DNA of 27,497 nt from an uncultured Candidatus Peribacteria bacterium (GTDB lineage: Bacteria > Patescibacteriota > Gracilibacteria > UBA1369): positions 7,521 through 35,017 of the forward strand of contig CAYMDR010000002.1 of NCBI GenBank assembly GCA_964389195.1. Reading direction: 5' to 3'. Below, piece by piece: positions 58 to 19,507 of this stretch (the first letter of the stretch is position 1; every line of letters starts with the position of its first letter). The translations under genes and the position numbers were made by a program. The notes below the pieces were generated by a model that did not search any database, was not told where the DNA came from, and was given only the letters and a program-made list of their open reading frames with translations.

Positions 58-78
58 CGTCCCGATCTAAGCTTGATT

Positions 79-1629
79 ATGTCCGTCGCTCGTAAAATTC
101 TTTTAAACACCTTTTCCCAAATTGCGGGCAAGGCTGCTATTGCCCTACTCGGCATTGTTTCCATTAAAATTATTACCACCTACCTGGGCAAATGCGGTTA
201 TGGAGAGTATACCGCCGCCTTTGAATTTTTAGCTTTCTTTGCCATCGTAGCCGATATGGGTCTCTTTACTATTGGCATTCGCGAAATGGCAAAAGATGAT
301 CAAAAAATCCCTATTATTATAGGCAATATTTTAACGATTCGCACCTTTCTTTCGGTGGTTGTTGTCAGTATAGCGGTGATAACAGCTTTTATTCTGCCGC
401 AATATGAAGGGTCAAAAATCCCTCTTGCTGTAGGCATAGTAGGCCTTGGTGCTATTCTTAATATTCTTACTTCAACCGTTTCTACCGTGCTGCAAGTACA
501 TTTAAAGATGCAGTATAACTCGCTCGCTTCGGTTATAGGTAAAATCTTTACGGTGGGTTACATGGCTTTTATTATTTATGTATTGCATCCCGGGAATTAC
601 GATAGCGGTTTTTATCAGCTTATTTGGGCAGGTATTTTTGGTAACAGTACCATGCTTGGCGTAACCTTTTATTATTCCTCCAAACTCACCCATATTCGTT
701 ACCGTTTTGATAAAGCTTTTCTCAAAGATGTCATCATCAAGGCTCTTCCGTATGGCATTGCATTAGTGCTCAACACGCTCTATTTCCGCATCGGGTCAGT
801 ATTATTATCCCTTATTGGTAGCAAAACACAGGTCATAAATGAATGCGGCGAAGCTTCCAATTATGGCGAAGTGGCCATTTATGGTGTACCTATGCGCATG
901 TTAGAGGCGGTCGGTATTATTCCCGTATATTTTATGAACGCGGTTTTACCCGTCCTGACCAAAGCTTTAAATGCCAAAAATGGTAGCCATAAAAGAATTA
1001 TCCAATACGCCTTTGACTTCTTAGTCATGGGAAGTTTACCGATTGTGGCAGGAACGCTCGTTTTAGCTTATCCACTCATAGCCGTGGTAAGTACCCCTGA
1101 ATTTTTAAGTAATCTTTCCAAAGGTTTTTATGGTGCCGACATTGTCCTACAAATTTTAATTTTTGCTTCCGCCTTTTCCTTTATTAACAGTTTATTTGGT
1201 TTCTTATTGGTGGCCGATAATCGTCAAATGAGCCTTTTAAAACGCAATGCCATTGGCGCTATTCTTACCATCGGTGCCGATCTTATCTTAATTCCACATT
1301 TCGGCGCACGCGGTGCAGCTATTACCAATGTCATTACCGAAGGCTATGTTATGGTCGCCTCTTACCTCATCGCCAAACATTACATTAATTTCCAAATAAA
1401 CCTCAAAAGCACCTTCAAAATGGCGCTTTCCTCCATCGTTATGGGCATAGTTATCTTTTTCTTACGCGATCCAACTTTTTACTATTTGCAAAATAAAAAT
1501 ATCATCCTGCTTGTTCCTGTTGGAGCGGTCGTGTATATAGGTATGCTTTTTTTCACTAAAACTCTCAGCAAAGAGATGCTAGGACTGCTCAAAAAACCAT
1601 CTCTTCCTAGCGATATAGAAAGTGTATAA
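79..1629 (+). CDS. Wzx/MATE-like (MOP superfamily) oligosaccharide flippase
   Basis: Many hydrophobic segments. N-terminus KILLNTFSQIAGK...YLGKCGYGEY...ADMGL and GARGAAITNVITE are typical of Polysacc_synt flippases. ATG at 79 preferred over TTG at 73. Confidence 0.85.
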   Translation: MSVARKILLNTFSQIAGKAAIALLGIVSIKIITTYLGKCGYGEYTAAFEFLAFFAIVADMGLFTIGIREMAKDDQKIPIIIGNILTIRTFLSVVVVSIAVITAFILPQYEGSKIPLAVGIVGLGAILNILTSTVSTVLQVHLKMQYNSLASVIGKIFTVGYMAFIIYVLHPGNYDSGFYQLIWAGIFGNSTMLGVTFYYSSKLTHIRYRFDKAFLKDVIIKALPYGIALVLNTLYFRIGSVLLSLIGSKTQVINECGEASNYGEVAIYGVPMRMLEAVGIIPVYFMNAVLPVLTKALNAKNGSHKRIIQYAFDFLVMGSLPIVAGTLVLAYPLIAVVSTPEFLSNLSKGFYGADIVLQILIFASAFSFINSLFGFLLVADNRQMSLLKRNAIGAILTIGADLILIPHFGARGAAITNVITEGYVMVASYLIAKHYINFQINLKSTFKMALSSIVMGIVIFFLRDPTFYYLQNKNIILLVPVGAVVYIGMLFFTKTLSKEMLGLLKKPSLPSDIESV

Positions 1630-1638
1630 TCTAAACGT

Positions 1639-3027
1639 ATGGCACATGCAAAAACATATCAAATCTTTAGCTTTGATAGCTTCGATATCGATCAAGAGCG
1701 GAATCAAATTACTTTTCATTACTCCGTTGATAACACTTTCTTTTTCGATCCCATCATCGAGGTCGATCTAAGTTCTCTTAGGGCGGCTAACCAACATACT
1801 CAGCACCTTATTCATAAGGCGGTTTTTAACTTAGGAATGGCTGAAATCCCAAGTTTTTATAAAGCTTTTTGTACGCCCCATATAAGCATTAAAGCCGGTA
1901 CACTTTTGCCTGAACAAATAAATTTTTGGCAAAATTTATACTGCAAAGGGTTAGGTGAATTTTTCTATCGCAATAATATTGATTTTAGAAATCTCATCAA
2001 TATCCAGGTAGATAGCCGCAGTGAAGCACCGCTCCAGCCTCAAGCGCCAGCGGCGCTTGTCTCCCTCGAAAAATATCTGGTTCCACTAGGTGGAGGCAAA
2101 GATAGTATCGTTACAGCAGAATTATTAAAAGCCCAAAAAAAAGATTTTACCTGGTTTATGTTAGAGCCCTGGGCGGCTTGCCAAGAAGTAATAGCCGCTT
2201 CCGGCAATGCTAAAGTAGTATCAATGCGCCGTCGCCCCGCATCATATTTTGCTAAAATTATTGAACTCAATAAGCAAGGTTTTTATAACGGCCATGTACC
2301 CATCACCTCCGTTTATATCTTCAGCGCAGTTCTGGCCGCCCAACTTCAGGGTTTTACCCATGTCGCTTTTTCCAATGAACGCAGCGCCAATATCGGCAAT
2401 GTACAATATTTAGAAGAGGAAATTAACCATCAATACTCGAAAAGTTTTGAATTTGAACAGGCTTGCCACAACTATATTCAGCAATACATTACTCCCCAAG
2501 TCTATGTATTTTCCCTTCTTCGCAACCTTTACGAAATTCAAATCGCCCAAAAATTTGTCGACTACCCAAAATATTTCCCCGCCTTTTTAAGCTGCAATAA
2601 AGGCTTAAAAGAAGGCAATATTTTCGATTCAGTCGCCGCCACTGCAACAGCGCCAGCTCCGCTCCACGCCAACTGGTGCTGCAAGTGCGCCAAGTGTGCA
2701 TTTGTATATGCCTTAATGAGCGCTTTTCTTGAACCCCAAAAAGTCCAAACCATCTTCGGAAAAAATTTATTTGAAGACACGTCTCTGCTACCACTTTTTG
2801 AAGAGCTTCTCGGCCTTCGCAACATCAAACCCTTCGACTGCGTAGGCATCCCAGAAGAGGTCTGGCTCGCCCTTTATCTGGCTAAAAAACAGCATGAGAA
2901 AGCAGGGGCACCCCTTCCCACTCTCCTAACCAAAATCGACCCAGAAAAAGGCCGCCAGTATCTTCCACTTTTAGAAGCAAAAACTTTGCAGCACCTGATT
3001 CCTAAAAATTTATTAATCGATGTCTAG
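1639..3027 (+). CDS. murL: UDP-MurNAc-L-Ala-L-Glu epimerase (MurL family)
   Basis: PP-loop LGGGKDS, then SNERSA, NHQYSKS, a Cys cluster (SCN...WCCKCAKC) and KPFDCVG. Overlaps a murD-like gene by 8 bp, the known murL-murD2 pairing. Confidence 0.8.
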   Translation: MAHAKTYQIFSFDSFDIDQERNQITFHYSVDNTFFFDPIIEVDLSSLRAANQHTQHLIHKAVFNLGMAEIPSFYKAFCTPHISIKAGTLLPEQINFWQNLYCKGLGEFFYRNNIDFRNLINIQVDSRSEAPLQPQAPAALVSLEKYLVPLGGGKDSIVTAELLKAQKKDFTWFMLEPWAACQEVIAASGNAKVVSMRRRPASYFAKIIELNKQGFYNGHVPITSVYIFSAVLAAQLQGFTHVAFSNERSANIGNVQYLEEEINHQYSKSFEFEQACHNYIQQYITPQVYVFSLLRNLYEIQIAQKFVDYPKYFPAFLSCNKGLKEGNIFDSVAATATAPAPLHANWCCKCAKCAFVYALMSAFLEPQKVQTIFGKNLFEDTSLLPLFEELLGLRNIKPFDCVGIPEEVWLALYLAKKQHEKAGAPLPTLLTKIDPEKGRQYLPLLEAKTLQHLIPKNLLIDV

Positions 3028-4315
3028 AAAAAATCTCCCCCAGATCGCCATCGCCGGTTTTGGCCAAGCCGGCAAAGCGCTGTGCGAATACTTCAAGCAA
3101 ACCCACGAGGTTCATGTTTTCGATGAAGTCGCACCGCAATCCACCTCGTCACGCCAATTCTCCAAAAATCTCACTTTCCACCAAACCCTCACCATTCCTG
3201 GAACTTTTTCCATCGTCTATAAATCCCCCGGCATACCTCTTTCTAAAGTAAAACTCGCTTCATCAAAAACTCGTATCACATCTCTCACTAATCTTTTTTT
3301 TGAAAAAGCCAAAGGCACCATCATCGGCATAACCGGTACCAAAGGCAAAAGTACCGTCAGTAGTCTTATCTACCACATTTTAAAAAATGCCGATAAAGAT
3401 GCCAAACTCATCGGCAACATCGGCGAAACCGGCCTCAAACTTCTTAAAAGTGACCATCCTAAACGTTATTATATTTACGAATTAAGCAGCTACCAATGTG
3501 AGCTCCTCACAGCATCTCCTCATATTGCCGTTATTACTAATCTCTACCAGGATCACCTGCTTCATCACGGCTCCATTAAAAAATACCATCAAGCAAAAGC
3601 CAAAATAACCACCTTCCAAAAAACAAACGATCATCTTTTTATGTCGGCTCAAGCTCAAAAAGTTTTTAAAAATCTTCAAACCAAAGCTCATAAAATAATC
3701 CTCTCCGACGCCCCATCGCAAATTTTTAAAACCAAATTATTAGGCGAACACAACCAATTAAACATCGCCATTGCTTATGAAGTGGCAACACTCCTTAAAA
3801 TTCCCAATAAAAAAATACTTGCCAGCATTGCTTCTTACAAACCACTACCCGGTCGTCTCGAAAAAATCGCCACTATTAAAATGTCCACCACCACCGCCTC
3901 ATTCCGTGCCAAGCCACGCTCTATCACCTTTTACGAGGACGCACTCGCCACTATTCCCGAAGCCACCTGGAGCGCCATCCAGGCACTGCCTCAAATCAAC
4001 ACCATCATTTTAGGTGGCCAAGATCGCGGTATTGATTTTGAAATATTTGCCAAACAACTTGCCACAACTGACATCAAAAACTTCATCATTTTCCCCGATA
4101 CCGGGAAAAAAATGGTAAAGCATCTTAAAGATCGTCAAATTTTTAAGGCCAAAAATATGGAGCAGGCAATTCGTTTAGCCTACCAATACACCCAAGGAAT
4201 CTGCTTACTCTCTACTGCGTCGCCCAGCTTTAACATGTTCAAAAACTACCAAGATCGCAGCGATCAATACCGCTATTGGATTAAAACTTTGAGCCCTCCA
4301 CGCCAGGCACGCTAG
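3020..4315 (+). CDS. murD: MurD-family ligase, probably the L-Glu-adding MurD2
   Basis: IAIAGFGQAG Rossmann start, VYKSPGI, P-loop ITGTKGKST, YELSSYQ, NLYQDHL, LGEHN, LPGRLE, ILGGQDRG, SPSFNMFKNYQDR. L-Glu specificity is inferred from the murL neighbour. Confidence 0.9.
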   Translation: MSRKNLPQIAIAGFGQAGKALCEYFKQTHEVHVFDEVAPQSTSSRQFSKNLTFHQTLTIPGTFSIVYKSPGIPLSKVKLASSKTRITSLTNLFFEKAKGTIIGITGTKGKSTVSSLIYHILKNADKDAKLIGNIGETGLKLLKSDHPKRYYIYELSSYQCELLTASPHIAVITNLYQDHLLHHGSIKKYHQAKAKITTFQKTNDHLFMSAQAQKVFKNLQTKAHKIILSDAPSQIFKTKLLGEHNQLNIAIAYEVATLLKIPNKKILASIASYKPLPGRLEKIATIKMSTTTASFRAKPRSITFYEDALATIPEATWSAIQALPQINTIILGGQDRGIDFEIFAKQLATTDIKNFIIFPDTGKKMVKHLKDRQIFKAKNMEQAIRLAYQYTQGICLLSTASPSFNMFKNYQDRSDQYRYWIKTLSPPRQAR

Positions 4316-4677: not shown

Positions 4678-6897
4678 ATGGACGAAGCAAAAAATGGGCA
4701 ACCACAGAAAAACATACCTCCAGAAAATAACAAAGCTGAGAGTAAACTTGATTTATGGATTCGCCAAACCTTACAACTTGGAGGTCAAAAACAGGACACT
4801 AAAACAGTGCATAACCCGGTTCCGCAGGTTCCGGCAATATCTAAAAGTGTGCCTCACCAGGGGCAACAACAGCAGGGATCTAAGCAGCCACAGGGTGGCA
4901 AACAGCAGCATCCTCAAAGAAACCGTTTTCGAGGAGCTCCCCTTCAACGGTCACCTTTTAAGTCGCACCGTCCTAACCATACAGGAAAGGCGCAACCTCA
5001 GAATCCATCCAAGGGCGCCCCACTTACTCAAACTCAAGGTTTTCAAAATGGACAACAGCAAGGCGCAATACAACAGCAGCACAATCAAAAAGCACAACAG
5101 CCTGGCAGAAAATTCGGCTTCTTCTTTGGCAAAGGCTCCCAAAATCACACAACAACTCAGCCACAATCAGTAGTCCCTCACCAGCAAGCTGGTCAACCTC
5201 AACGCTTTCAAGGAAAACTCCGCGCTATTCCTTTTGGTGGACTCGATGAAGTCGGCAAAAACTCCATGGCCCTTGAATACATCGCGCCCGGCTCATCAAC
5301 AAGTGAAATCATCCTGATCGATCTTGGTTTTCAATTCCCTGATGAAGATATGTTGGGCGTAGATTACATCATTCCCGATGTTAGTTATTTGGAAGATAAG
5401 CTTGATCGTATTCGCGGTATCGTATTTACCCACGGCCATTTGGATCATATCGGCGCTGTGCCTTATATCGTTCCTAAATTAAACTTTCCTGCCATGTATG
5501 GAACTAGGCTTACGCTCGGCCTCGTCCAAAAACGCTTGGAAGAGTTTGGCCTTATGGGCAAATCTAAGCTTAACGTTATTACCGAAAAAGACACACTGAA
5601 ATTGGGCCCCTTTGAGGTCAGTTTCTTCGCGGTAAACCATAGCATCCCAGATTCAGTGGGTATCGTCGTAAAAACCCCGGCGGGCAACATTGTCCACACC
5701 GGTGACTTTAAATTCGATCACACACCTTCGGGTAATCAAAAGCCTGCTGACTTTGCCCGCATCGCCAGTTTGGCTAATCAAAATATCGGAGCGCTCTTTA
5801 TCGATTCTACCAATGCTTTAAAACCAGGTCACACCGTAACCGAAAAACGTATCGGTGAATCACTTGAAGCTATTATTAAAAATACCGAAGGTCGTATTCT
5901 TATTGCCTCATTCGCTTCACAAATTGGACGTATGCAGCAAATTATCGATGCCGCCCAAAAACATGGCCGCACCATCTTTTTAAGTGGGCGCAGTTTAGTC
6001 GATAATGTGGCCATGGCTTCCGAAATGGGCTACCTCCGCGTGCCCCAGGGTCTCGTGCATGACCTGCGCAAAGTAAAGAAAATTCCTGATAGCAAAGCGC
6101 TTATTTTAACTACGGGTAGTCAGGGTGAAGATGTAGCGTCGCTTACTCGCATGGCCTTAGAAGAACATCCCGCAGTAAAAATTAAAAAAGGCGATACCGT
6201 TGTGCTCTCTTCATCGCCTATTCCTGGCAATGAGCGTGCGGTGACCAATGTTACCAACAATCTTTGCCGCCTCGGCGCTCGCATTATCAATAATCAGATT
6301 ATGGATGTGCATGCTTCCGGCCACGCCCAACAAGAAGATCTAAAACTCATGATGAGCTTAGTACGGCCAAAATATGTAGTACCCGTCCACGGCGAATACT
6401 ACATGCGTTTCGGCAACAAAGAGCTCGCTCTCTCCCTTGGTTACGATGAAAAACATACCACCCTTATCGAAAACGGCGATGTTATTGAAATCGAAAATAA
6501 CGAAGTTAGCTACAAAGAAGAAAAAGTCCAAAATAATTATATCCTCGTAGATGGCTTAGGTGTTGGCGATATTGGTGCTCAGGTCATCATGGATCGCCAA
6601 ACCCTCGCGGAAAACGGCGTACTCATTGTCATCGTTCCGGTCGACGCGCAAAGCAAAAAATTGAAAGGCGAAGTAAATGTTATCTCCCGGGGCTTTATCT
6701 ACATGAGCCAATCGGAAGAACTCATTAAAGGCATCGCCCAAAACGCGGACGTAGCATACCGCAATATTATTGAAAAACGCGGCGCCGAGGTAAACCGTGC
6801 CGACATTAAAAAATATTTACGTGAGACCTTAGACAAATTCGTTCACCAAAAAATTGAACGCCACCCGCTGGTGATCCCGATTATTTTCGAGAAATAG
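4678..6897 (+). CDS. rnj: Ribonuclease J with a ~178-aa low-complexity N-terminal extension
   Basis: GGLDEVGKN, IDLG, metallo-beta-lactamase THGHLDHIG, NHSIPD, HTGDFK, ASFASQIGR, TGSQGE, HASGH, PVHGE. Confidence 0.95.
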   Translation: MDEAKNGQPQKNIPPENNKAESKLDLWIRQTLQLGGQKQDTKTVHNPVPQVPAISKSVPHQGQQQQGSKQPQGGKQQHPQRNRFRGAPLQRSPFKSHRPNHTGKAQPQNPSKGAPLTQTQGFQNGQQQGAIQQQHNQKAQQPGRKFGFFFGKGSQNHTTTQPQSVVPHQQAGQPQRFQGKLRAIPFGGLDEVGKNSMALEYIAPGSSTSEIILIDLGFQFPDEDMLGVDYIIPDVSYLEDKLDRIRGIVFTHGHLDHIGAVPYIVPKLNFPAMYGTRLTLGLVQKRLEEFGLMGKSKLNVITEKDTLKLGPFEVSFFAVNHSIPDSVGIVVKTPAGNIVHTGDFKFDHTPSGNQKPADFARIASLANQNIGALFIDSTNALKPGHTVTEKRIGESLEAIIKNTEGRILIASFASQIGRMQQIIDAAQKHGRTIFLSGRSLVDNVAMASEMGYLRVPQGLVHDLRKVKKIPDSKALILTTGSQGEDVASLTRMALEEHPAVKIKKGDTVVLSSSPIPGNERAVTNVTNNLCRLGARIINNQIMDVHASGHAQQEDLKLMMSLVRPKYVVPVHGEYYMRFGNKELALSLGYDEKHTTLIENGDVIEIENNEVSYKEEKVQNNYILVDGLGVGDIGAQVIMDRQTLAENGVLIVIVPVDAQSKKLKGEVNVISRGFIYMSQSEELIKGIAQNADVAYRNIIEKRGAEVNRADIKKYLRETLDKFVHQKIERHPLVIPIIFEK

Positions 6898-6983: not shown

Positions 6984-9900
6984 ATGGCACTCCCTACTGG
7001 TACTCAAATGGGCCTTGATGCTGAATCTACAGCTCGTGAAAGGCAAAAAGCTTTAGCCAAAAGCCCCACAGTAGCTCAATTAAGAAAAATCGTAGAGGTT
7101 GCAAATGGGTCAGGTTTTCTTTTAAATTCTGAACTGATTGCAGCAGATGAGAATGATGACATCCTCATGAAAAATTTCCAAGAGGGAGATATGAATACCA
7201 TCCCCTTGATTTTAAAAAGGTTGGATGCCGGAACTATGGAATTAGCAGATGTTGAGGCAGTTTTAACACGCGAAAATATCAGTACTAGTATTGGTTTTTA
7301 TATAGACCTAAGATTAAGTTTAAGTCGTGAAAAAAAGCCTGCAGCCGTGGCGGGTTTGATCCAAAAAATACTACGTTCAAATGTAGCAACCAATCGCGAT
7401 TTATTAGCAGCTGCAACTCTACAAGAGCATCAAAATTTTATCTTAGACGTTATAGTAGCAAAAGGACTCCCCCCTCGTGCCCCTGGAGAAATAGCGCAGT
7501 ATTCAAGCTTACAAAGATTATTACTTTTTCTGGAAAATAGTAGTTTATTAGAAGGAGAGACAGAGCTCGAGGCCATCACAAAGGAAGAGCTCGTGCAAAA
7601 ATTCCAAGCTGACCCCACCAACATTCAGCATCTTTACGCGATTAAAAAAAAGACGGAGGAAGGCGAAATAGATCTCATAGAGTTAATAGAAGTAATACCT
7701 CCGCAAGAAATATCACAAATAATAGCCACGCTTATTCGAAGTATCTTTGAGCGTGTCTCTCAGGCTCCTGATAAAGGTGACCAAAATGCCTTAGCTTTTG
7801 AAATCACCAAAAATTTTGTACCCTCAGGCTTTATAACCTCTCAAGACTTAATAAATGCGGTGCGAGGCAAGGAAGATTTAGGTTTTCAAAAGTTTTTATT
7901 GACGTTTTTTCCTGGATTAGAGGCCAAAGTTAAGACAGTACAGCCTCCCTTCCCAGGTTCGCCGCAAGCTGCCAATGCAGAAGCTACTGACGATGGTCAA
8001 GCACTTGGCGATGATGATATAGAAATTGTAAATGAAAATATCACACTGCCCCTCCTCCACATCTACAAAGCCAATGGAGGTAGACTAACCGCTGGATACC
8101 CTTTAATACCAGGGCAAACTATCACCATAGGCCCTCCACCCAGCAATATAGAAATAAAAGGTCTTACTGAAACTATAACATTAAGGTTTGAAGTTTTAGA
8201 ATTTACTACTCCTGGGATTTCTTTAGCGGGACCTCGAGCTGCTACCGTTCAGACAGCATCTCAATTAGGTCAATTAAGCGGTGCTCAGTCACCAAATATA
8301 GGCCAGCACAGGTTAGGTTCGGCAGGTTTAACCATCGGCAATGGCTGCTTTCGTATTGTCGCTGATGGCGTACCGGATATTATTTTTGAAATAGCAGATC
8401 GTGAAATTCCTCCAGCTAAAATAGGGCCAGTGGTTAGTCATCATATCGCAAATCTTATCCAAAGGCGTTGGGTAGTTTTGGATCGAGAAGGCGCGAATAG
8501 TGCTAATTTAGAGGCATTAGATCAAGATTACCAAAAGGTCGTTCAATATGCGGCCGAAAAAAAACTAACCATCTTAAATGAAGCAGAAAGAGCCATTATT
8601 AGCGACTTAATAAACGAAAGACTTACCGGCCTCCTGCTTGAACGACAAAGATTAGTGGCCGAAAAAAATCCAGCCCTAGGTGTCCAAATGCAAATGGTTA
8701 CTGAACTTATCGAAGAGGTTACATCTTTTGCCAGAAAGAACGGTTTTGCTATACAAGATAAAGCGCAGATAGAAGCTAATAGAAAACAACTTCATCACAT
8801 ATTAACCGCCAGAGCCGCCGCTAGAGGTGATAGAAATGCTTTACGAGAAACCAATAAAGCCATGGCTGCCTATTTATGCAGCGCTCAGCAATGCACAACC
8901 TTCCATTATGAAAGTGGCGAACTTTTAGAACCAGACACATCGCCCGCTTATAAAGGCCACGTGATAATAGTCACCACCCCGGATGGTAAAGAACATATTC
9001 GTCCTTTTGTTTTAGAAACAGATACCATTATGGATCTCTTGGCGGAAGTACATCATGGTGATGCAAATACGGTTGAGCTACAACCGGAGGGGTACAAAGT
9101 AAGCGGTACTGGGGGACAATTCCCCAAAGGAGCCAAAGTTACCTTACAGGTTGGCCAGGAGGTAGTGGTACAAGATACTCATGGTCAAAACTACCGAGTA
9201 AAAATTGAAACCCACGCTTATACCGAACGTGCCTTAGAAACCAGCATAGAAGATCGAGTAAGTGAACTAAGCGAAGTAATTTTTGATAATACCCGCCTTC
9301 CCGATCAACAACATCAAAAAGCATGGGAAAAACTCCAATACCTCGTCAACTCAAACCGTATCACTGCTCTTGCTTGCCTAAGAATAATAGGATCAAGAAT
9401 TAGAGCAGCAGCAGGAGCCATTTCATTATGGAGTGCGGCAGAACCCAACGGCGATGCCCATGTTTTAAGTTTGATCCACGCTCTGCTCAACTATCCAGAT
9501 ACTGCTCAGTTACTTTCCGAACTAAAAACTCTAATAACTCCTGAGCTTATGGCCGCAGCCGTAAGGGATCGCACCATGTCTTACAACGATTTTGACCGTT
9601 TTGCACACCCTAAACTCGAATACCCCATTGCGCCCGTTGAAGGTTGGTCACGTTGGCCAGGAGCCAGAGGTCCAGCAGCAAAAAAAGCTTTTGATGAAAA
9701 AAACACCCAACTGGATCAAGAGGCCGCAGAGGCTCAAAGGCAATACGGTTCAAAAGCCAAAAATGGTGCCATTCAAATAGCCTGCTTTTTAGAAAGCGGC
9801 TTAAGCCAAACAGATGGCCTACGCCCAGAATATCTAGCCCAAATCAAAAAAATCCAAGAACAACGTGCTCAGCTACACGCTATTGATCATGGCCAAAATG

Positions 9901-11105
9901 ACATTGCCGCTTTAGACCAGCTTGCAGCACAAAGTGAAGGCATTACCCTAGGAGATTTTTTAACCAGCGCTGAAATCGGTAGCTACTCCCAAGCCCATGC
10001 TGCCTTTGCCCGCCCTACTCCTACAACCACCCTGAAAGCTTTTCTCACCCAAAAAGCCATACTCCTTGCCCGTGGCGCGTTCAACATACTAACAACAGAT
10101 CAGCAAGATAGAGCCGCTATGGCCAAACTGGACTACCTCTTCTTGCGCATGCAAAATATCACCATCTCTTATCGCGATATTGTCACGCCAGCCTTCCCAA
10201 ACCCTGAGGCCGTCTCTCAACACTTAGCCGCCGTTAACTATCTTCAAGAACAAATAATGGTAGGCCGAGAAGCCGTCCAGGGTCCTTTACTGGATGCTGT
10301 CCATGCCCGAGCCATCGAAGCCCTAAAAAAAGCCGGAGATGCCGTGCAAACCATTACCACCGCCACAAGCATCGATGTCCTCATCGCCCTTGCCGACCTC
10401 ATGCTCGACGACAGCTTAGCCGCCCACGTAGGAGAGATCCAAGTCCCCGCCCGTTATGATATGCAAGCCGGCGTAGCCACCCAACCCCTCAAAGGCAACT
10501 GGCAAACCGTACAGCAAATGTGGAGAACCAAACTCATAGAACTCGGAAAAGTAGCGGCGGAAAGAGCAAAAAAAGGTGACGATGCCGGCTTTTTAGCAAA
10601 AGTATTATTCCGTGCTGCCGGTGAAGATTATGAAAGAGGTAAAGATAGCAAAGGCCAAACTCGTCCTAAATTATTCGATCTGGCCGACGTAGGCATCACC
10701 CGAAGCGAACTAGCCGCAGGTATGCAAATTCAACAAGCAGAGTTCACTCGCCAAAAATATTTGCCCTTAGTAGATAAAGCCTGTGCGCTTCCGCCCGAAG
10801 ATTTTAGCTTCATGAAAGAAGCCCAAGCCTTTTACGCAACGGCTCCTCTACAAGAACAGGAGCACTTGGTTAAAACTACCTGGAGAATAATGAACGCAAA
10901 AATTCGCACCATGAAGGCTGAAATACAAGCTATTCAAGCCAAAAAAGAGCATGCAACCGCACAAGAACTAGCAAGAGAAGCCTTTCTAGTAGACAGAGTT
11001 TACCCTGTTTTACAAACGAGAGGCTTTACGACAGCCACACGAGAAACAATTTCAGAAGATGAAGTGAAAAAACTTTTAAGTGCAACCCCAGCAACCGCCG
11101 CCTAA
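6984..11105 (+). CDS. 1373-aa hypothetical protein, mostly alpha-helical, with a possible FHA-like beta domain
   Basis: Uninterrupted 4.1-kb ORF with its own promoter. No signal peptide or TM segment. Beta-rich stretch YPLIPGQTITIG...GLTIGNGCFRIV. Confidence 0.85.
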   Translation: MALPTGTQMGLDAESTARERQKALAKSPTVAQLRKIVEVANGSGFLLNSELIAADENDDILMKNFQEGDMNTIPLILKRLDAGTMELADVEAVLTRENISTSIGFYIDLRLSLSREKKPAAVAGLIQKILRSNVATNRDLLAAATLQEHQNFILDVIVAKGLPPRAPGEIAQYSSLQRLLLFLENSSLLEGETELEAITKEELVQKFQADPTNIQHLYAIKKKTEEGEIDLIELIEVIPPQEISQIIATLIRSIFERVSQAPDKGDQNALAFEITKNFVPSGFITSQDLINAVRGKEDLGFQKFLLTFFPGLEAKVKTVQPPFPGSPQAANAEATDDGQALGDDDIEIVNENITLPLLHIYKANGGRLTAGYPLIPGQTITIGPPPSNIEIKGLTETITLRFEVLEFTTPGISLAGPRAATVQTASQLGQLSGAQSPNIGQHRLGSAGLTIGNGCFRIVADGVPDIIFEIADREIPPAKIGPVVSHHIANLIQRRWVVLDREGANSANLEALDQDYQKVVQYAAEKKLTILNEAERAIISDLINERLTGLLLERQRLVAEKNPALGVQMQMVTELIEEVTSFARKNGFAIQDKAQIEANRKQLHHILTARAAARGDRNALRETNKAMAAYLCSAQQCTTFHYESGELLEPDTSPAYKGHVIIVTTPDGKEHIRPFVLETDTIMDLLAEVHHGDANTVELQPEGYKVSGTGGQFPKGAKVTLQVGQEVVVQDTHGQNYRVKIETHAYTERALETSIEDRVSELSEVIFDNTRLPDQQHQKAWEKLQYLVNSNRITALACLRIIGSRIRAAAGAISLWSAAEPNGDAHVLSLIHALLNYPDTAQLLSELKTLITPELMAAAVRDRTMSYNDFDRFAHPKLEYPIAPVEGWSRWPGARGPAAKKAFDEKNTQLDQEAAEAQRQYGSKAKNGAIQIACFLESGLSQTDGLRPEYLAQIKKIQEQRAQLHAIDHGQNDIAALDQLAAQSEGITLGDFLTSAEIGSYSQAHAAFARPTPTTTLKAFLTQKAILLARGAFNILTTDQQDRAAMAKLDYLFLRMQNITISYRDIVTPAFPNPEAVSQHLAAVNYLQEQIMVGREAVQGPLLDAVHARAIEALKKAGDAVQTITTATSIDVLIALADLMLDDSLAAHVGEIQVPARYDMQAGVATQPLKGNWQTVQQMWRTKLIELGKVAAERAKKGDDAGFLAKVLFRAAGEDYERGKDSKGQTRPKLFDLADVGITRSELAAGMQIQQAEFTRQKYLPLVDKACALPPEDFSFMKEAQAFYATAPLQEQEHLVKTTWRIMNAKIRTMKAEIQAIQAKKEHATAQELAREAFLVDRVYPVLQTRGFTTATRETISEDEVKKLLSATPATAA

Positions 11106-18562: not shown

Positions 18563-19507
18563 ATGTCCTACCAAAAACTACTGCAAAAATTCCCAGCCAT
18601 CCAGACCGATATTGCGCTAGCTCCTTTAACCAGCATGAATATTGGCGGCTCCGCTGATCTTTATTATAAGCTCACGGATATCAACCAGCTTCCAGCCCTT
18701 ATTGATTTGGCTTATCAATTACAGCTTCCCGTTTTTATGTTGGGAGGAGGAAGTAATACTATTTTTGCCGATGAAGGTTTCCGTGGCTTAGTAGTGCATA
18801 TGCAGCCCCACCACCTTGAAATTGATCATACTGAAAATAACCCTGAATTTGGCTATATCATAGCCGATGCCGGGACTTTACTTTCACAGGTAGTGCAGTT
18901 TTCTCTTAAAAATAATCTTTCCGGCCTAGAAAAAATGATGGGACTTCCCGGTACTATTGGGGGCGCAGTCAGAGGTAATGCCGGTGCTTTTGGCGTAGAA
19001 ATTCAAGATATTTTTAGCAAAGCTCTTATCTATACCCCAGAAAAAGGCCTCCATGAAGAGCCAAAAGCTTATTTTAACTTCAATTATCGCTTTTCAACCG
19101 TAAAAAAAAGCCAAGATATTATCCTCAAAGTCTTCTTAAAATTGGCAAAAAAAGACGCAGAAGCCTCCAAGACTGCCCTTGCCGAAGCTTTAGCTATTGT
19201 AAAAAATCGCATCAGTAAGCAACCAAAAGGTAAATGCTCCGGCTCTTTTTTCAAAAACCCTGATCCTCATAACGATCTATTAAAAGCCGGTTATTTACTT
19301 GATCAAGTCGGATGTAAGGGCTTGCAGATAGGTCAAGCTCAGGTATCTTTAGCGCATGCCAACTGGATTATGAATCTGGGTGGAGCAACTCAAAAAGATG
19401 TCCTTGAGCTTAAAAACATTATGCAAGAAAGGGTAAAAAGCCGCTTTAACATTAGTTTAGAGCCCGAAGTCCAGTTTGTCACCGCCACCGGTTTCTTACA
19501 AATTTGA
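18563..19507 (+). CDS. murB: UDP-N-acetylenolpyruvoylglucosamine reductase
   Basis: LAPLTSMNIGG, LGGGSNT, GLPGTIGGAVRGNAGAFG, YRFS, GSFFKNP, HANWIMNLG, LEPEV. Confidence 0.97.
   Translation: MSYQKLLQKFPAIQTDIALAPLTSMNIGGSADLYYKLTDINQLPALIDLAYQLQLPVFMLGGGSNTIFADEGFRGLVVHMQPHHLEIDHTENNPEFGYIIADAGTLLSQVVQFSLKNNLSGLEKMMGLPGTIGGAVRGNAGAFGVEIQDIFSKALIYTPEKGLHEEPKAYFNFNYRFSTVKKSQDIILKVFLKLAKKDAEASKTALAEALAIVKNRISKQPKGKCSGSFFKNPDPHNDLLKAGYLLDQVGCKGLQIGQAQVSLAHANWIMNLGGATQKDVLELKNIMQERVKSRFNISLEPEVQFVTATGFLQI

What the first reader, a model, noticed from the sequence alone, without database searches (positions are those of the whole stretch)
1639..4315. Racemase-independent D-Glu route (MurL + MurD2) in a CPR-like genome
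Seen: a PP-loop protein with the MurL motif set is translationally coupled to a MurD ligase. Known: in Xanthomonas/Xylella and some actinomycetes, MurD2 adds L-Glu and the ATP-dependent MurL epimerises it on the UDP-muropeptide, replacing MurI. Inference: this organism builds peptidoglycan without free D-Glu, which suits a symbiont scavenging host L-amino acids and may reflect horizontal transfer.
Basis: partly seen in the sequence, partly recalled or inferred. Interest (0 to 1): 0.65.

Follow-up and report, generated by a model that had tools for sequence, protein, structure and literature searches.

The report
MurL-MurD2 D-glutamate bypass gene pair
This ultra-small (Peregrinibacteria-type CPR) bacterium carries the known two-gene route that attaches L-glutamate to the cell-wall precursor and then flips it to D-glutamate with ATP; it is an ordinary new member of that pathway, but this window also shows the pair sitting where sister genera keep an ordinary murD, and an empty site where they keep glutamate racemase.

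Summary
ORF 1639-3027 (462 aa) is a full-length MurL homologue with a GGGKDS PP-loop. Its stop overlaps by 8 nt the start of ORF 3020-4315, the genome's only MurD-type ligase.

- The ligase has Arg336 at the position of E. coli Lys348. That residue is Arg in 71 of 72 MurL-linked MurDs and Lys in 11 of 11 MurDs from racemase-bearing CPR genomes. It also has Leu309, Pro402 and Phe404.
- It falls in the clade that holds a Xanthomonas MurD2.
- No murI was found in the 92%-complete genome. The site where three sister genera carry murI is assembled in this window as a 71-nt spacer.
- The one candidate D-amino-acid transaminase sits behind pabB and is most likely PabC.
- In 401 sampled Patescibacteria, MurL (55) and MurI (164) are almost mutually exclusive. 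In the window's own family, each of 15 other genera has exactly one of the two.
- Horizontal replacement is supported: equally related genomes show three states at this locus, and the window's MurL does not group with its sister genus's.

The pathway is known (Feng et al. 2017). This scan has noted it on other DNA 264 times. It is a new member of a known kind, of modest interest. No enzyme activity was tested.

The parts
73..1629 (+). MOP-family flippase-like gene (Polysacc_synt). It is the conserved upstream flank of the locus and ends 9 nt before murL.
   Evidence: PF01943 E 4e-18. It is 62-65% identical to the gene at the same position in G410, G412 and contig L142.
1639..3027 (+). [quoted passage not shown]
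   Evidence: NF041275 E 1.1e-76, full length. Relatives carry Pfam MurL_N + MurL_epimerase_C. AF2 model pLDDT 90 with a QueC-like PP-loop core. It shares 49 of 61 invariant residues with X. sacchari MurL.
2089..2106 (+). PP-loop ATP-binding motif GGGKDS (MurL residues 151-156).
   Evidence: G151, G152, G153, K154 and D155 are invariant in the 20-sequence MurL alignment A1 and conserved in X. sacchari MurL.
2677..2697 (+). Cys cluster C347-x2-C350-x2-C353 of MurL. With C319 it is probably a structural metal site as in QueC (inferred).
   Evidence: C319, C347, C350 and C353 are invariant in A1 and kept in X. sacchari MurL. QueC-family proteins are the best fold matches.
3020..3027 (+). 8-nt overlap between the murD start codon and the murL stop codon.
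   Evidence: Read directly from the sequence. X. sacchari murL/murD2 overlap by 20 nt in the same order.
3020..4315 (+). [quoted passage not shown]
   Evidence: TIGR01087 244.5 bits. One each of MurC/D/E/F in the genome. It sits in the 98 SH-aLRT clade with X. sacchari MurD2. The AU test rejects grouping it with same-order canonical MurDs, p 0.0097.
4025..4027 (+). Codon of Arg336, the position of E. coli MurD Lys348 and X. oryzae MurD2 Arg358.
   Evidence: This position is R in 71 of 72 MurL-linked MurDs and K in 11 of 11 MurDs of MurI-bearing CPR genomes and in G412/G415/G418. The review PMC8788868 reports R358K among the mutations that switch specificity.
3551..3553 (+). Codon of Asp178, the position of E. 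coli Asp182 and X. oryzae MurD2 Glu197. This is the canonical-type residue and the one MurD2 signature not met.
   Evidence: D occurs here in 13 of 72 MurL-linked MurDs and E in 59.
4678..6897 (+). rnj (RNase J with an N-terminal extension of about 180 aa). It is the conserved downstream flank and places the contig in its family.
   Evidence: TIGR00649 567.7 bits. It is 80% identical to G410 and 67-73% to five other same-family genomes. Named relatives are Peregrinibacteria and Gracilibacteria.
18563..19507 (+). murB, another peptidoglycan precursor gene in the window (context).
   Evidence: TIGR00179 200 bits, cut-off 144.5; E. coli MurB tblastn hit.
26510..26580 (.). Empty murI site: a 71-nt AT-rich spacer between two genes that flank murI in sister genera.
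   Evidence: In G412 and G415, murI lies between the homologues of window 25766-26509(-) and 26581-27497(+). In G418 it lies next to the first of these.

Best explanation
The two overlapping genes are a MurL-MurD2 pair, the known racemase-independent way of putting D-Glu into peptidoglycan. [quoted passage not shown] The organism, a Peregrinibacteria-type member of the Patescibacteria, therefore needs neither glutamate racemase nor free D-Glu. In evolutionary terms, the pair replaced a canonical murD in place, between a flippase gene and rnj. The pair is of a lineage different from that of the sister genus, so it was probably acquired horizontally within the CPR. murI is missing from its conserved site 22 kb downstream. 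Shown here: homology, signature residues, fold, gene order, distribution, synteny and phylogeny. Inferred from the characterised Xanthomonas/Micromonospora enzymes: the L-Glu specificity and the epimerase chemistry.
For: MurL identity:
- Full-length NF041275 match. Thousands of homologues carry Pfam MurL_N + MurL_epimerase_C.
- 49 of 61 residues invariant in CPR MurLs, including all polar ones, are shared with X. sacchari MurL, which itself scores 836 bits against a 700-bit cut-off.
- The AF2 model (pLDDT 90, pTM 0.90) has a PP-loop ATP-pyrophosphatase core. Its best matches are QatC, QueC, Cap9, MnmA, TtuA and argininosuccinate synthase. This fits the ATP-to-AMP stoichiometry reported for MurL (PMC8788868).

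Ligase type:
- Arg336, Leu309, Pro402 and Phe404 match X. sacchari MurD2 (R, I, P, F) and 71/72, 68/72, 32/72 and 23/72 (a further 45 have Tyr) of MurL-linked MurDs respectively. All 11 MurDs from MurI-bearing CPR genomes have Lys and Ala/Thr/Ser at the first and third positions.
- A 98 SH-aLRT clade unites 72 MurL-linked MurDs, including the window's and X. sacchari MurD2.
- The AU test rejects the window's MurD as sister to same-order canonical MurDs (p 0.0097).

Context:
- murL is followed by murD on the same strand in 71 of 80 GTDB loci across CPR, Bacteroidota, Bacillota and Actinomycetota. The two are fused in 10 of 55 phylum hits.

No other D-Glu source:
- No MurI by HMM or by tblastn with E. 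coli and five same-order or same-class MurI sequences.
- The syntenic murI site is empty.
- The class IV aminotransferase on contig C70 lies directly downstream of a pabB-like gene and is closest to BCAT/ADC-lyase types.

Distribution:
- MurL is in 55 and MurI in 164 of 401 Patescibacteria. They overlap only in two weak (1e-12) MurI-like hits.
- In the window's family, 9 genera have MurL and the other 6 have MurI.

The rest of the pathway is present: MurB, MurC, MurE, MurF, MraY, MurG, FtsW, Ddl and a PBP.

Replacement and HGT:
- Flanking genes are 58-65% identical in L142, G410 and G412. Against the window, MurL/MurD are 58/56% in L142 and 35/37% in G410. G412 has no MurL and a canonical MurD at 29%.
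- The window's MurL sits in a 100-supported clade with Paceibacteria-labelled homologues, apart from its family mates. The AU test rejects window + G410 as one clade (p 8.6e-14).
Against: - No activity was measured, so L-Glu specificity is inferred.
- The residue whose mutation most directly affects specificity in X. oryzae MurD2 (Glu197) is Asp178 here, the canonical state. 13 of 72 MurL-linked MurDs share this.
- The window's MurD is a long branch (1.2 substitutions per site). Its position at the very base of the MurD2 clade is not resolved.
- The MurL score is below NCBI's equivalog cut-off.
- The genome is 92% complete with 5.75% contamination, so absence of a second D-Glu source elsewhere cannot be proven.
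- 46% of sampled Patescibacteria have neither MurI nor MurL, so lack of MurI alone is weak evidence in this phylum.
- The second AU test was framed after the tree had been seen.
Confidence: 0.85

Rival explanations
1. The pair is MurL plus a ligase of relaxed or dual specificity. With Asp178 (canonical) alongside Arg336 and Leu309, the ligase might accept both L-Glu (then fixed by MurL) and scavenged D-Glu.
For: Asp is at the E. coli D182 position. The review reports that S. mutans MurD, which has Arg at the 358 position, is a D-Glu ligase that slightly accepts L-Glu, and that K319T lets E. coli MurD accept L-Glu (PMC8788868). The window has Leu at K319.
Against: 13 of 72 MurL-linked MurDs also have Asp, and they live in genomes that showed no MurI where this was checked. 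MurDs from MurI-bearing CPR genomes also lack Lys at the 319 position (A/F/Y), so that site does not discriminate in this phylum.
Confidence: 0.1
2. The PP-loop protein is not an epimerase. It would adenylate the stem peptide for another modification (for example amidation or ligation), or act as a QueC-like enzyme, while the ligase uses D-Glu taken from the host.
For: Only homology links it to MurL. JGI names some relatives 7-cyano-7-deazaguanine synthase. The best fold matches are QueC, QatC and Cap9.
Against: There is no QueC family hit. The match to MurL is full length, with N- and C-terminal domains that QueC lacks. The polar residues of Xanthomonas MurL are conserved. Distribution is strictly complementary to MurI, including 15 of 15 family genera. 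Fusions to MurD exist.
Confidence: 0.04
3. The cassette is a binning or assembly artefact: it belongs to another organism in the metagenome and says nothing about this genome.
For: The MAG has 221 contigs and 5.75% contamination. The window's MurL groups with Paceibacteria-labelled homologues rather than family mates. FtsZ hits fall on two contigs.
Against: The cassette is flanked on the same 35-kb contig by a flippase gene and rnj that are 65% (80% over the RNase J core) identical to the sister genus and in the same order. An independent Logan contig (L142) has the same cassette lineage at the same locus. GC content is unremarkable. The genome holds only one MurD.
Confidence: 0.01

Closest known systems
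MurL (XOO_1319) / MurD2 (XOO_1320) of Xanthomonas oryzae. [quoted passage not shown] 2017, as reviewed in PMC8788868 and PMC5808125).
   Same: Same gene order (murL then murD2) with overlapping stop and start. The MurL match is full length and shares its polar residues. The ligase has Arg, Pro and Phe at the positions of R358, P433 and F435. The genome has no murI and no convincing dat. The compared reference was the X. sacchari orthologue pair (L120).
   Different: Only about 31% identity for MurL. The best identity of X. sacchari MurD2 to any row in the alignment was 35%; the window-X. sacchari pair itself was not computed. The score is below the Xanthomonadales equivalog cut-off. Asp replaces Glu197. 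The host is a reduced Peregrinibacteria-type CPR bacterium. The pair lies between a flippase gene and rnj.
MurL-MurD2 pairs and fusions of other Patescibacteria, Bacteroidota and Bacillota (uncharacterised; named by IMG as EC 5.1.1.23-type epimerase and L-glutamate ligase).
   Same: 49-77% (MurL) and 47-58% (MurD) identity to the nearest database homologues. They share the same architecture and the same Arg signature.
   Different: Here the two genes are separate rather than fused. The cassette lineage differs from that of the sister genus at the same locus.
Canonical MurI + MurD route (E. coli, and sister genera G412, G415 and G418).
   Same: [quoted passage not shown] In the sister genera murD sits at the same locus between the flippase gene and rnj.
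   Different: The sister MurDs have Lys at position 348 and are only 29% identical to the window's. They carry murI at a site that is a 71-nt spacer here, and they have no murL.
QueC and QueC-like PP-loop enzymes (QatC, Cap9).
   Same: The fold of the central domain, the PP-loop motif, a Cys cluster, and chemistry that starts with adenylation of a carboxylate.
   Different: There is no sequence-family match. MurL has extra N-terminal (about 1-140) and C-terminal helical domains, and a different substrate and outcome.

Membership tests
[quoted passage not shown] | Full-length homology to characterised MurL (NCBIfam NF041275; Pfam MurL_N + MurL_epimerase_C) | tested here: met
   E 1.1e-76, residues 5-459 on model 5-440 of 447. 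Homologues at 40-77% identity carry PF26299 + PF26298. The 258-bit score is below the 700-bit cut-off, which is tuned to Xanthomonadales; no CPR genome reaches it (0 of 401).
[quoted passage not shown] | ATP-binding PP-loop and the conserved polar residue set of a bona fide MurL | tested here: met
   GGGKDS at 151-156. 49 of 61 invariant residues are shared with X. sacchari MurL, and all differences are non-polar or peripheral. The fold is a PP-loop ATPase.
[quoted passage not shown] | Encoded next to (or fused with) a MurD2-type ligase | tested here: met
   8-nt overlap with the ligase gene. The same arrangement is seen in X. sacchari and in 71 of 80 GTDB loci.
[quoted passage not shown] | Genome lacks glutamate racemase and D-amino-acid transaminase | tested here: met
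   No MurI, and the syntenic murI site is empty. The class IV aminotransferases are a pabB-linked PabC-like gene and a split IlvE. Caveat: the genome is 92% complete.
[quoted passage not shown] | ATP-dependent, unidirectional L-to-D epimerisation of the terminal Glu, producing AMP | not testable with these tools
   Needs an enzyme assay.
[quoted passage not shown] | Arg at the position of X. oryzae R358 (E. coli K348) | tested here: met
   Arg336. This position is R in 71 of 72 MurL-linked MurDs and K in all canonical comparators.
[quoted passage not shown] | Glu at the position of X. oryzae E197 (E. coli D182) | tested here: not met
   Asp178. 13 of 72 MurL-linked MurDs also have Asp, and 2 of 11 canonical CPR MurDs have Glu, so the site is not diagnostic in this phylum.
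[quoted passage not shown] | Pro and Phe at the positions of P433 and F435 | tested here: met
   Pro402 and Phe404. Phe is also common in canonical CPR MurDs, so only Pro is informative.
[quoted passage not shown] | Groups phylogenetically with a reference MurD2 rather than with canonical MurD | tested here: met
   98 SH-aLRT clade with X. sacchari MurD2. The AU test rejects a clade with same-order canonical MurDs, p 0.0097. A placement as the first branch of the MurD2 side is not excluded.
[quoted passage not shown] | Uses L-Glu and hardly uses D-Glu | not testable with these tools
   Needs an enzyme assay. TIGR01087 cannot discriminate, because X. sacchari MurD2 also passes it (298 bits).
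QueC (7-cyano-7-deazaguanine synthase) | Match to QueC family models; about 220 aa, single domain | tested here: not met
   No QueC model at E<=0.01 in NCBIfam or Pfam. Only the core fold is similar (TM 0.57-0.59 on the target, about 200 columns, 14-15% identity).

The most novel reading that the evidence does not exclude
The slot between the flippase gene and rnj may be an exchange point where whole 'D-Glu installation modules' are swapped by homologous replacement among Peregrinibacteria-type CPR bacteria. The modules would be canonical murD, or one of several unrelated murL-murD2 cassette lineages. Each swap to murL-murD2 would be followed by loss of murI from a fixed site about 22 kb away. 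The Asp178/Arg336 ligase, and the canonical-clade MurDs found next to murL in G134 and G331, could then be intermediates in switching chiral specificity.
Probability: 0.35. Interest if true: 0.45.

Novelty: new member of a known kind. Interest (0 to 1): 0.33.

Why it matters
The MurD2/MurL route was described as confined to a few genera and was proposed as a narrow-spectrum antibiotic target (PMC8788868). This window adds one more case showing that the route is common in the CPR. It is in 55 of 401 sampled genomes, and in at least 595 GTDB species across several phyla. It replaces MurI cleanly and can be recognised from a single residue (Arg at E. coli K348). Standard models (TIGR01087) still name these ligases D-glutamate ligases. 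The replaced murD and the empty murI site in one window give a clear natural example of non-orthologous displacement of an essential cell-wall step. The case is useful for annotation and for choosing enzymes for biochemical study, but it is not a new mechanism.

Tried and rejected
- Pfam scan of the 462-aa protein found nothing, because the local Pfam copy lacks PF26298 and PF26299.
- A sequence search of the PDB found no MurL structure, only chance hits.
- Reading the class IV aminotransferase on C70 as Dat was rejected. Its best PDB matches are archaeal-type BCATs. The aligned segment shows no DAAT-type Arg-x-His motif; the motif itself is recalled from the Bacillus DAAT literature, not taken from a tool. 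The gene directly follows a pabB-like gene.
The reference pair came instead from an X. sacchari record in the plasmid collection.
- The first AU test (window MurD held with the canonical side) was uninformative. A basal position satisfies both splits, so it was replaced by the same-order test.
- The flippase gene is not a conserved partner of murL outside this family: 1 of 80 loci, and not adjacent there.
- Promoter and terminator scans were at chance level.
- The paper on MurI of Ca. Saccharimonas aalborgensis (doi 10.1111/1462-2920.16621) is not held.
- Literature searches found no paper linking MurL or MurD2 with the CPR.
Full report
**Observation.** The window has ORFs at exactly the stated coordinates: 1639-3027 (+, 462 aa) and 3020-4315 (+, 431 aa). 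The ligase ATG at 3020 lies 8 nt before the end of the upstream stop codon (TAG, 3025-3027). [quoted passage not shown] That is below the 700-bit equivalog cut-off, which no Patescibacteria genome reaches (0 of 401). The protein has a GGGKDS PP-loop at residues 151-156 and a C-x2-C-x2-C cluster at 347-353. The 431-aa protein passes the MurD model TIGR01087 (244.5 bits against a 211.95 cut-off).

**What the 462-aa protein is.** More than 6,000 database homologues were found. The nearest carry the Pfam domains MurL_N (PF26299) and MurL_epimerase_C (PF26298), and several are named MurL by IMG. An X. sacchari record in the plasmid collection supplied a reference murL (836 bits, above the cut-off) and the overlapping murD2. 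Of 61 residues invariant in a 20-sequence CPR MurL alignment, 49 are identical in the Xanthomonas enzyme. These include every polar one: K75, G151-D155, E161, R198, N217-H219, S245/E247/S249, N263-K268, C319, C347/C350/C353, K397, C401 and E407. An AlphaFold2 model (pLDDT 90, pTM 0.90) has a central domain that matches PP-loop ATP pyrophosphatases best: QatC, QueC, Cap9, MnmA, TtuA and argininosuccinate synthase. No MurL structure is in the PDB copy. These enzymes adenylate a carbonyl or carboxylate, which fits the one ATP to AMP stoichiometry and the proposed acyl-adenylate mechanism of MurL (PMC8788868). No QueC family model is matched.

**What the ligase is.** The review of the characterised enzymes names four X. 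oryzae MurD2 residues that differ from E. coli MurD: E197/D182, R358/K348, P433/A414 and F435/L416. It reports that E197D/R358K switches the enzyme to D-Glu, and that K319T lets E. coli MurD accept L-Glu. I aligned four sets of sequences:
- E. coli MurD;
- X. sacchari MurD2, whose residues E206, R367, P443 and F445 sit at a constant offset from the X. oryzae numbering;
- 72 MurDs encoded next to murL, or otherwise in MurL-bearing genomes;
- 11 MurDs from MurI-bearing CPR genomes.

At the K348 position, 71 of 72 MurL-linked enzymes have Arg and all 11 canonical ones have Lys; the window has Arg336. At K319, 68 of 72 have Ile or Leu; the window has Leu309 and X. sacchari has Ile. At A414 the window has Pro402. 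At D182 the window keeps Asp178, as do 13 of the 72; this is the one signature not met. In a maximum-likelihood tree, a branch with 98% SH-aLRT support unites 72 MurL-linked MurDs, including the window's and X. sacchari MurD2. All MurDs of MurI-bearing genomes and E. coli MurD fall outside it. An AU test rejects placing the window's MurD with the canonical MurDs of its own order (p 0.0097, delta lnL 62). Its exact position at the base of the MurD2 side is unresolved. TIGR01087 also accepts X. sacchari MurD2 (298 bits), so the name 'D-glutamate ligase' attached to that model carries no weight here. IMG already names many relatives 'L-glutamate ligase'.

**Is there another D-Glu source?** The assembly has 1.46 Mb in 221 contigs, is 92% complete with 5.75% contamination, and has unimodal GC. 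It holds one each of MurC, MurD, MurE and MurF. It also holds MurB (in the window), MraY, MurG, FtsW, Ddl and a PBP. No MurI was found with TIGR00067 or PF01177, nor by tblastn with E. coli MurI and five MurIs from the same order or class. A class IV aminotransferase on contig C70 was the one candidate Dat. Its best solved relatives are BCATs (1e-56, against 1e-41 for DAAT). In the printed alignment it does not show the Arg-x-His carboxylate motif that I recall for Bacillus DAAT; that motif is from my own knowledge and was not checked against a tool result. The gene lies directly downstream of a (split) pabB-like chorismate-binding gene, so it is most likely PabC. A second copy on C163 is a split IlvE.

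**Distribution.** In 401 evenly drawn genomes of the phylum, MurL is in 55 and MurI (E<=1e-10) in 164. The only overlaps are two weak 1e-12 hits (G002, G229), and none of the 125 above-cut-off MurIs is in a MurL genome. Fisher's test gives p about 1e-10, which overstates the case because relatives are not independent. Switches occur within genera (g62, g91, g141, g58). 184 genomes have neither enzyme. In the window's own family, all 15 other genera have exactly one of the two: MurL in 9 and MurI in 6. Beyond the CPR, MurL homologues occur in at least 595 GTDB species, including Bacteroidota, Bacillota and Actinomycetota. In 71 of 80 loci, murD follows murL on the same strand. Ten of the 55 phylum hits are fusions.

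**Synteny and origin.** The neighbouring RNase J is 80% identical to that of genome G410 and 67-73% identical to those of five other same-family genomes. Its named relatives are Peregrinibacteria and Gracilibacteria. The contig therefore belongs to this family. Equally related genomes show three states between the flippase gene and rnj:

| Genome | Flank identity to window | MurL identity | MurD identity | State |
|---|---|---|---|---|
| Logan contig L142 | 58-65% | 58% | 56% | murL-murD2 of the window's type |
| G410 (sister genus) | 65% | 35% | 37% | murL-murD2 of another lineage, same order |
| G412, G415, G418 | 49-62% | none | 29-30%, Lys at 348 | canonical murD only |

In the three canonical genomes, murI lies elsewhere on the contig. 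In G412 and G415 it sits between the homologues of window genes 25766-26509(-) and 26581-27497(+); in G418 it sits next to the first of these. In the window these two genes are separated by a 71-nt AT-rich spacer (26510-26580) with no murI. The absence of murI is therefore seen directly and is not an assembly gap. In a MurL tree, the window's protein sits in a 100%-supported clade with homologues labelled Pacebacteria or Paceibacterota. A 99% branch separates that clade from its family mates and from G410. The AU test rejects a window + G410 clade (p 8.6e-14; this test was framed after the tree had been seen). The cassette thus replaced a canonical murD in place and was probably acquired from another CPR lineage. 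There is no compositional signal for this.

**Verdict.** The lifestyle rationale is untested and is not specific to symbionts. The system is the known MurD2/MurL route. The scan has already noted it 264 times on other DNA, with several follow-ups reaching the same reading, including in-place swaps and fusions in Patescibacteria. This is a new member of a known kind. Its modest added value lies in the synteny evidence and in the near-perfect Arg/Lys discriminator. Enzyme specificity and chemistry remain inferred.

Noticed in passing
L094 (G134:C3:26558-27889) and L103 (G331:C15:5178-6401): Two MurL-bearing genomes have MurDs that cluster with the canonical MurDs of MurI-bearing congeners. Both have Ala at the E. 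coli T321 position. G134 keeps Lys348 and its murL is convergent with murD. G331 has Arg348 and the gene order murD then murL. They may be recent in-place conversions or intermediates in the specificity switch.
   Followed up: partly
L121 (Pseudonocardia alni plasmid pPaSha1, 3764-5164) and two other Pseudonocardia plasmids: MurL-like proteins (28-30% identity, 44 of 61 invariant residues, K154R in the PP-loop) are encoded on actinomycete plasmids with no murD next to them. Their function is unknown.
   Followed up: partly
L120:5121-6557 (X. sacchari) and TIGR01087: The NCBI equivalog model named 'UDP-N-acetylmuramoyl-L-alanine--D-glutamate ligase' scores a Xanthomonas MurD2 above its cut-off, and RefSeq annotates it as a D-glutamate ligase. 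MurD2 enzymes are therefore systematically misnamed.
   Followed up: yes
G000 contigs C70 (L007:2248-3638) and C163 (L009:1-865): A pabB-like chorismate-binding gene and an ilvE gene are each split into two adjacent ORFs on one strand. These could be frameshifts, pseudogenes or assembly errors.
   Followed up: no
G000 contigs C27 and C174: E. coli FtsZ hits two contigs: a full gene on C27 and the first 68 residues at the end of C174. This fits strain mixture or the reported 5.75% contamination.
   Followed up: no
window 4678-5229: RNase J carries an N-terminal extension of about 180 residues with no family match. Relatives have extensions of variable length, giving proteins of 600-900 aa.
   Followed up: no
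L142:5244-5993 and 7767-9598: In the Logan contig with the window-type cassette, three small ORFs (one YafQ toxin-like) sit between the flippase gene and murL. Two further ORFs sit between murL and murD, so the slot takes up insertions.
   Followed up: no
L031, L033 (G401, G402), L047: GTDB representative MAGs titled 'uncultured Gammaproteobacteria' have genomes of 1.0-1.3 Mb and CPR-type MurL-MurD2, so the NCBI organism labels are probably wrong.
   Followed up: no
phylum sample: 184 of 401 sampled Patescibacteria genomes have neither MurI nor MurL at E<=1e-10. Their D-Glu source, or whether they make peptidoglycan at all, was not examined.
   Followed up: no
window 6984-11105: A 1373-aa ORF downstream of rnj has no Pfam family and only a weak 22% match in one relative (G418).
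   Followed up: no
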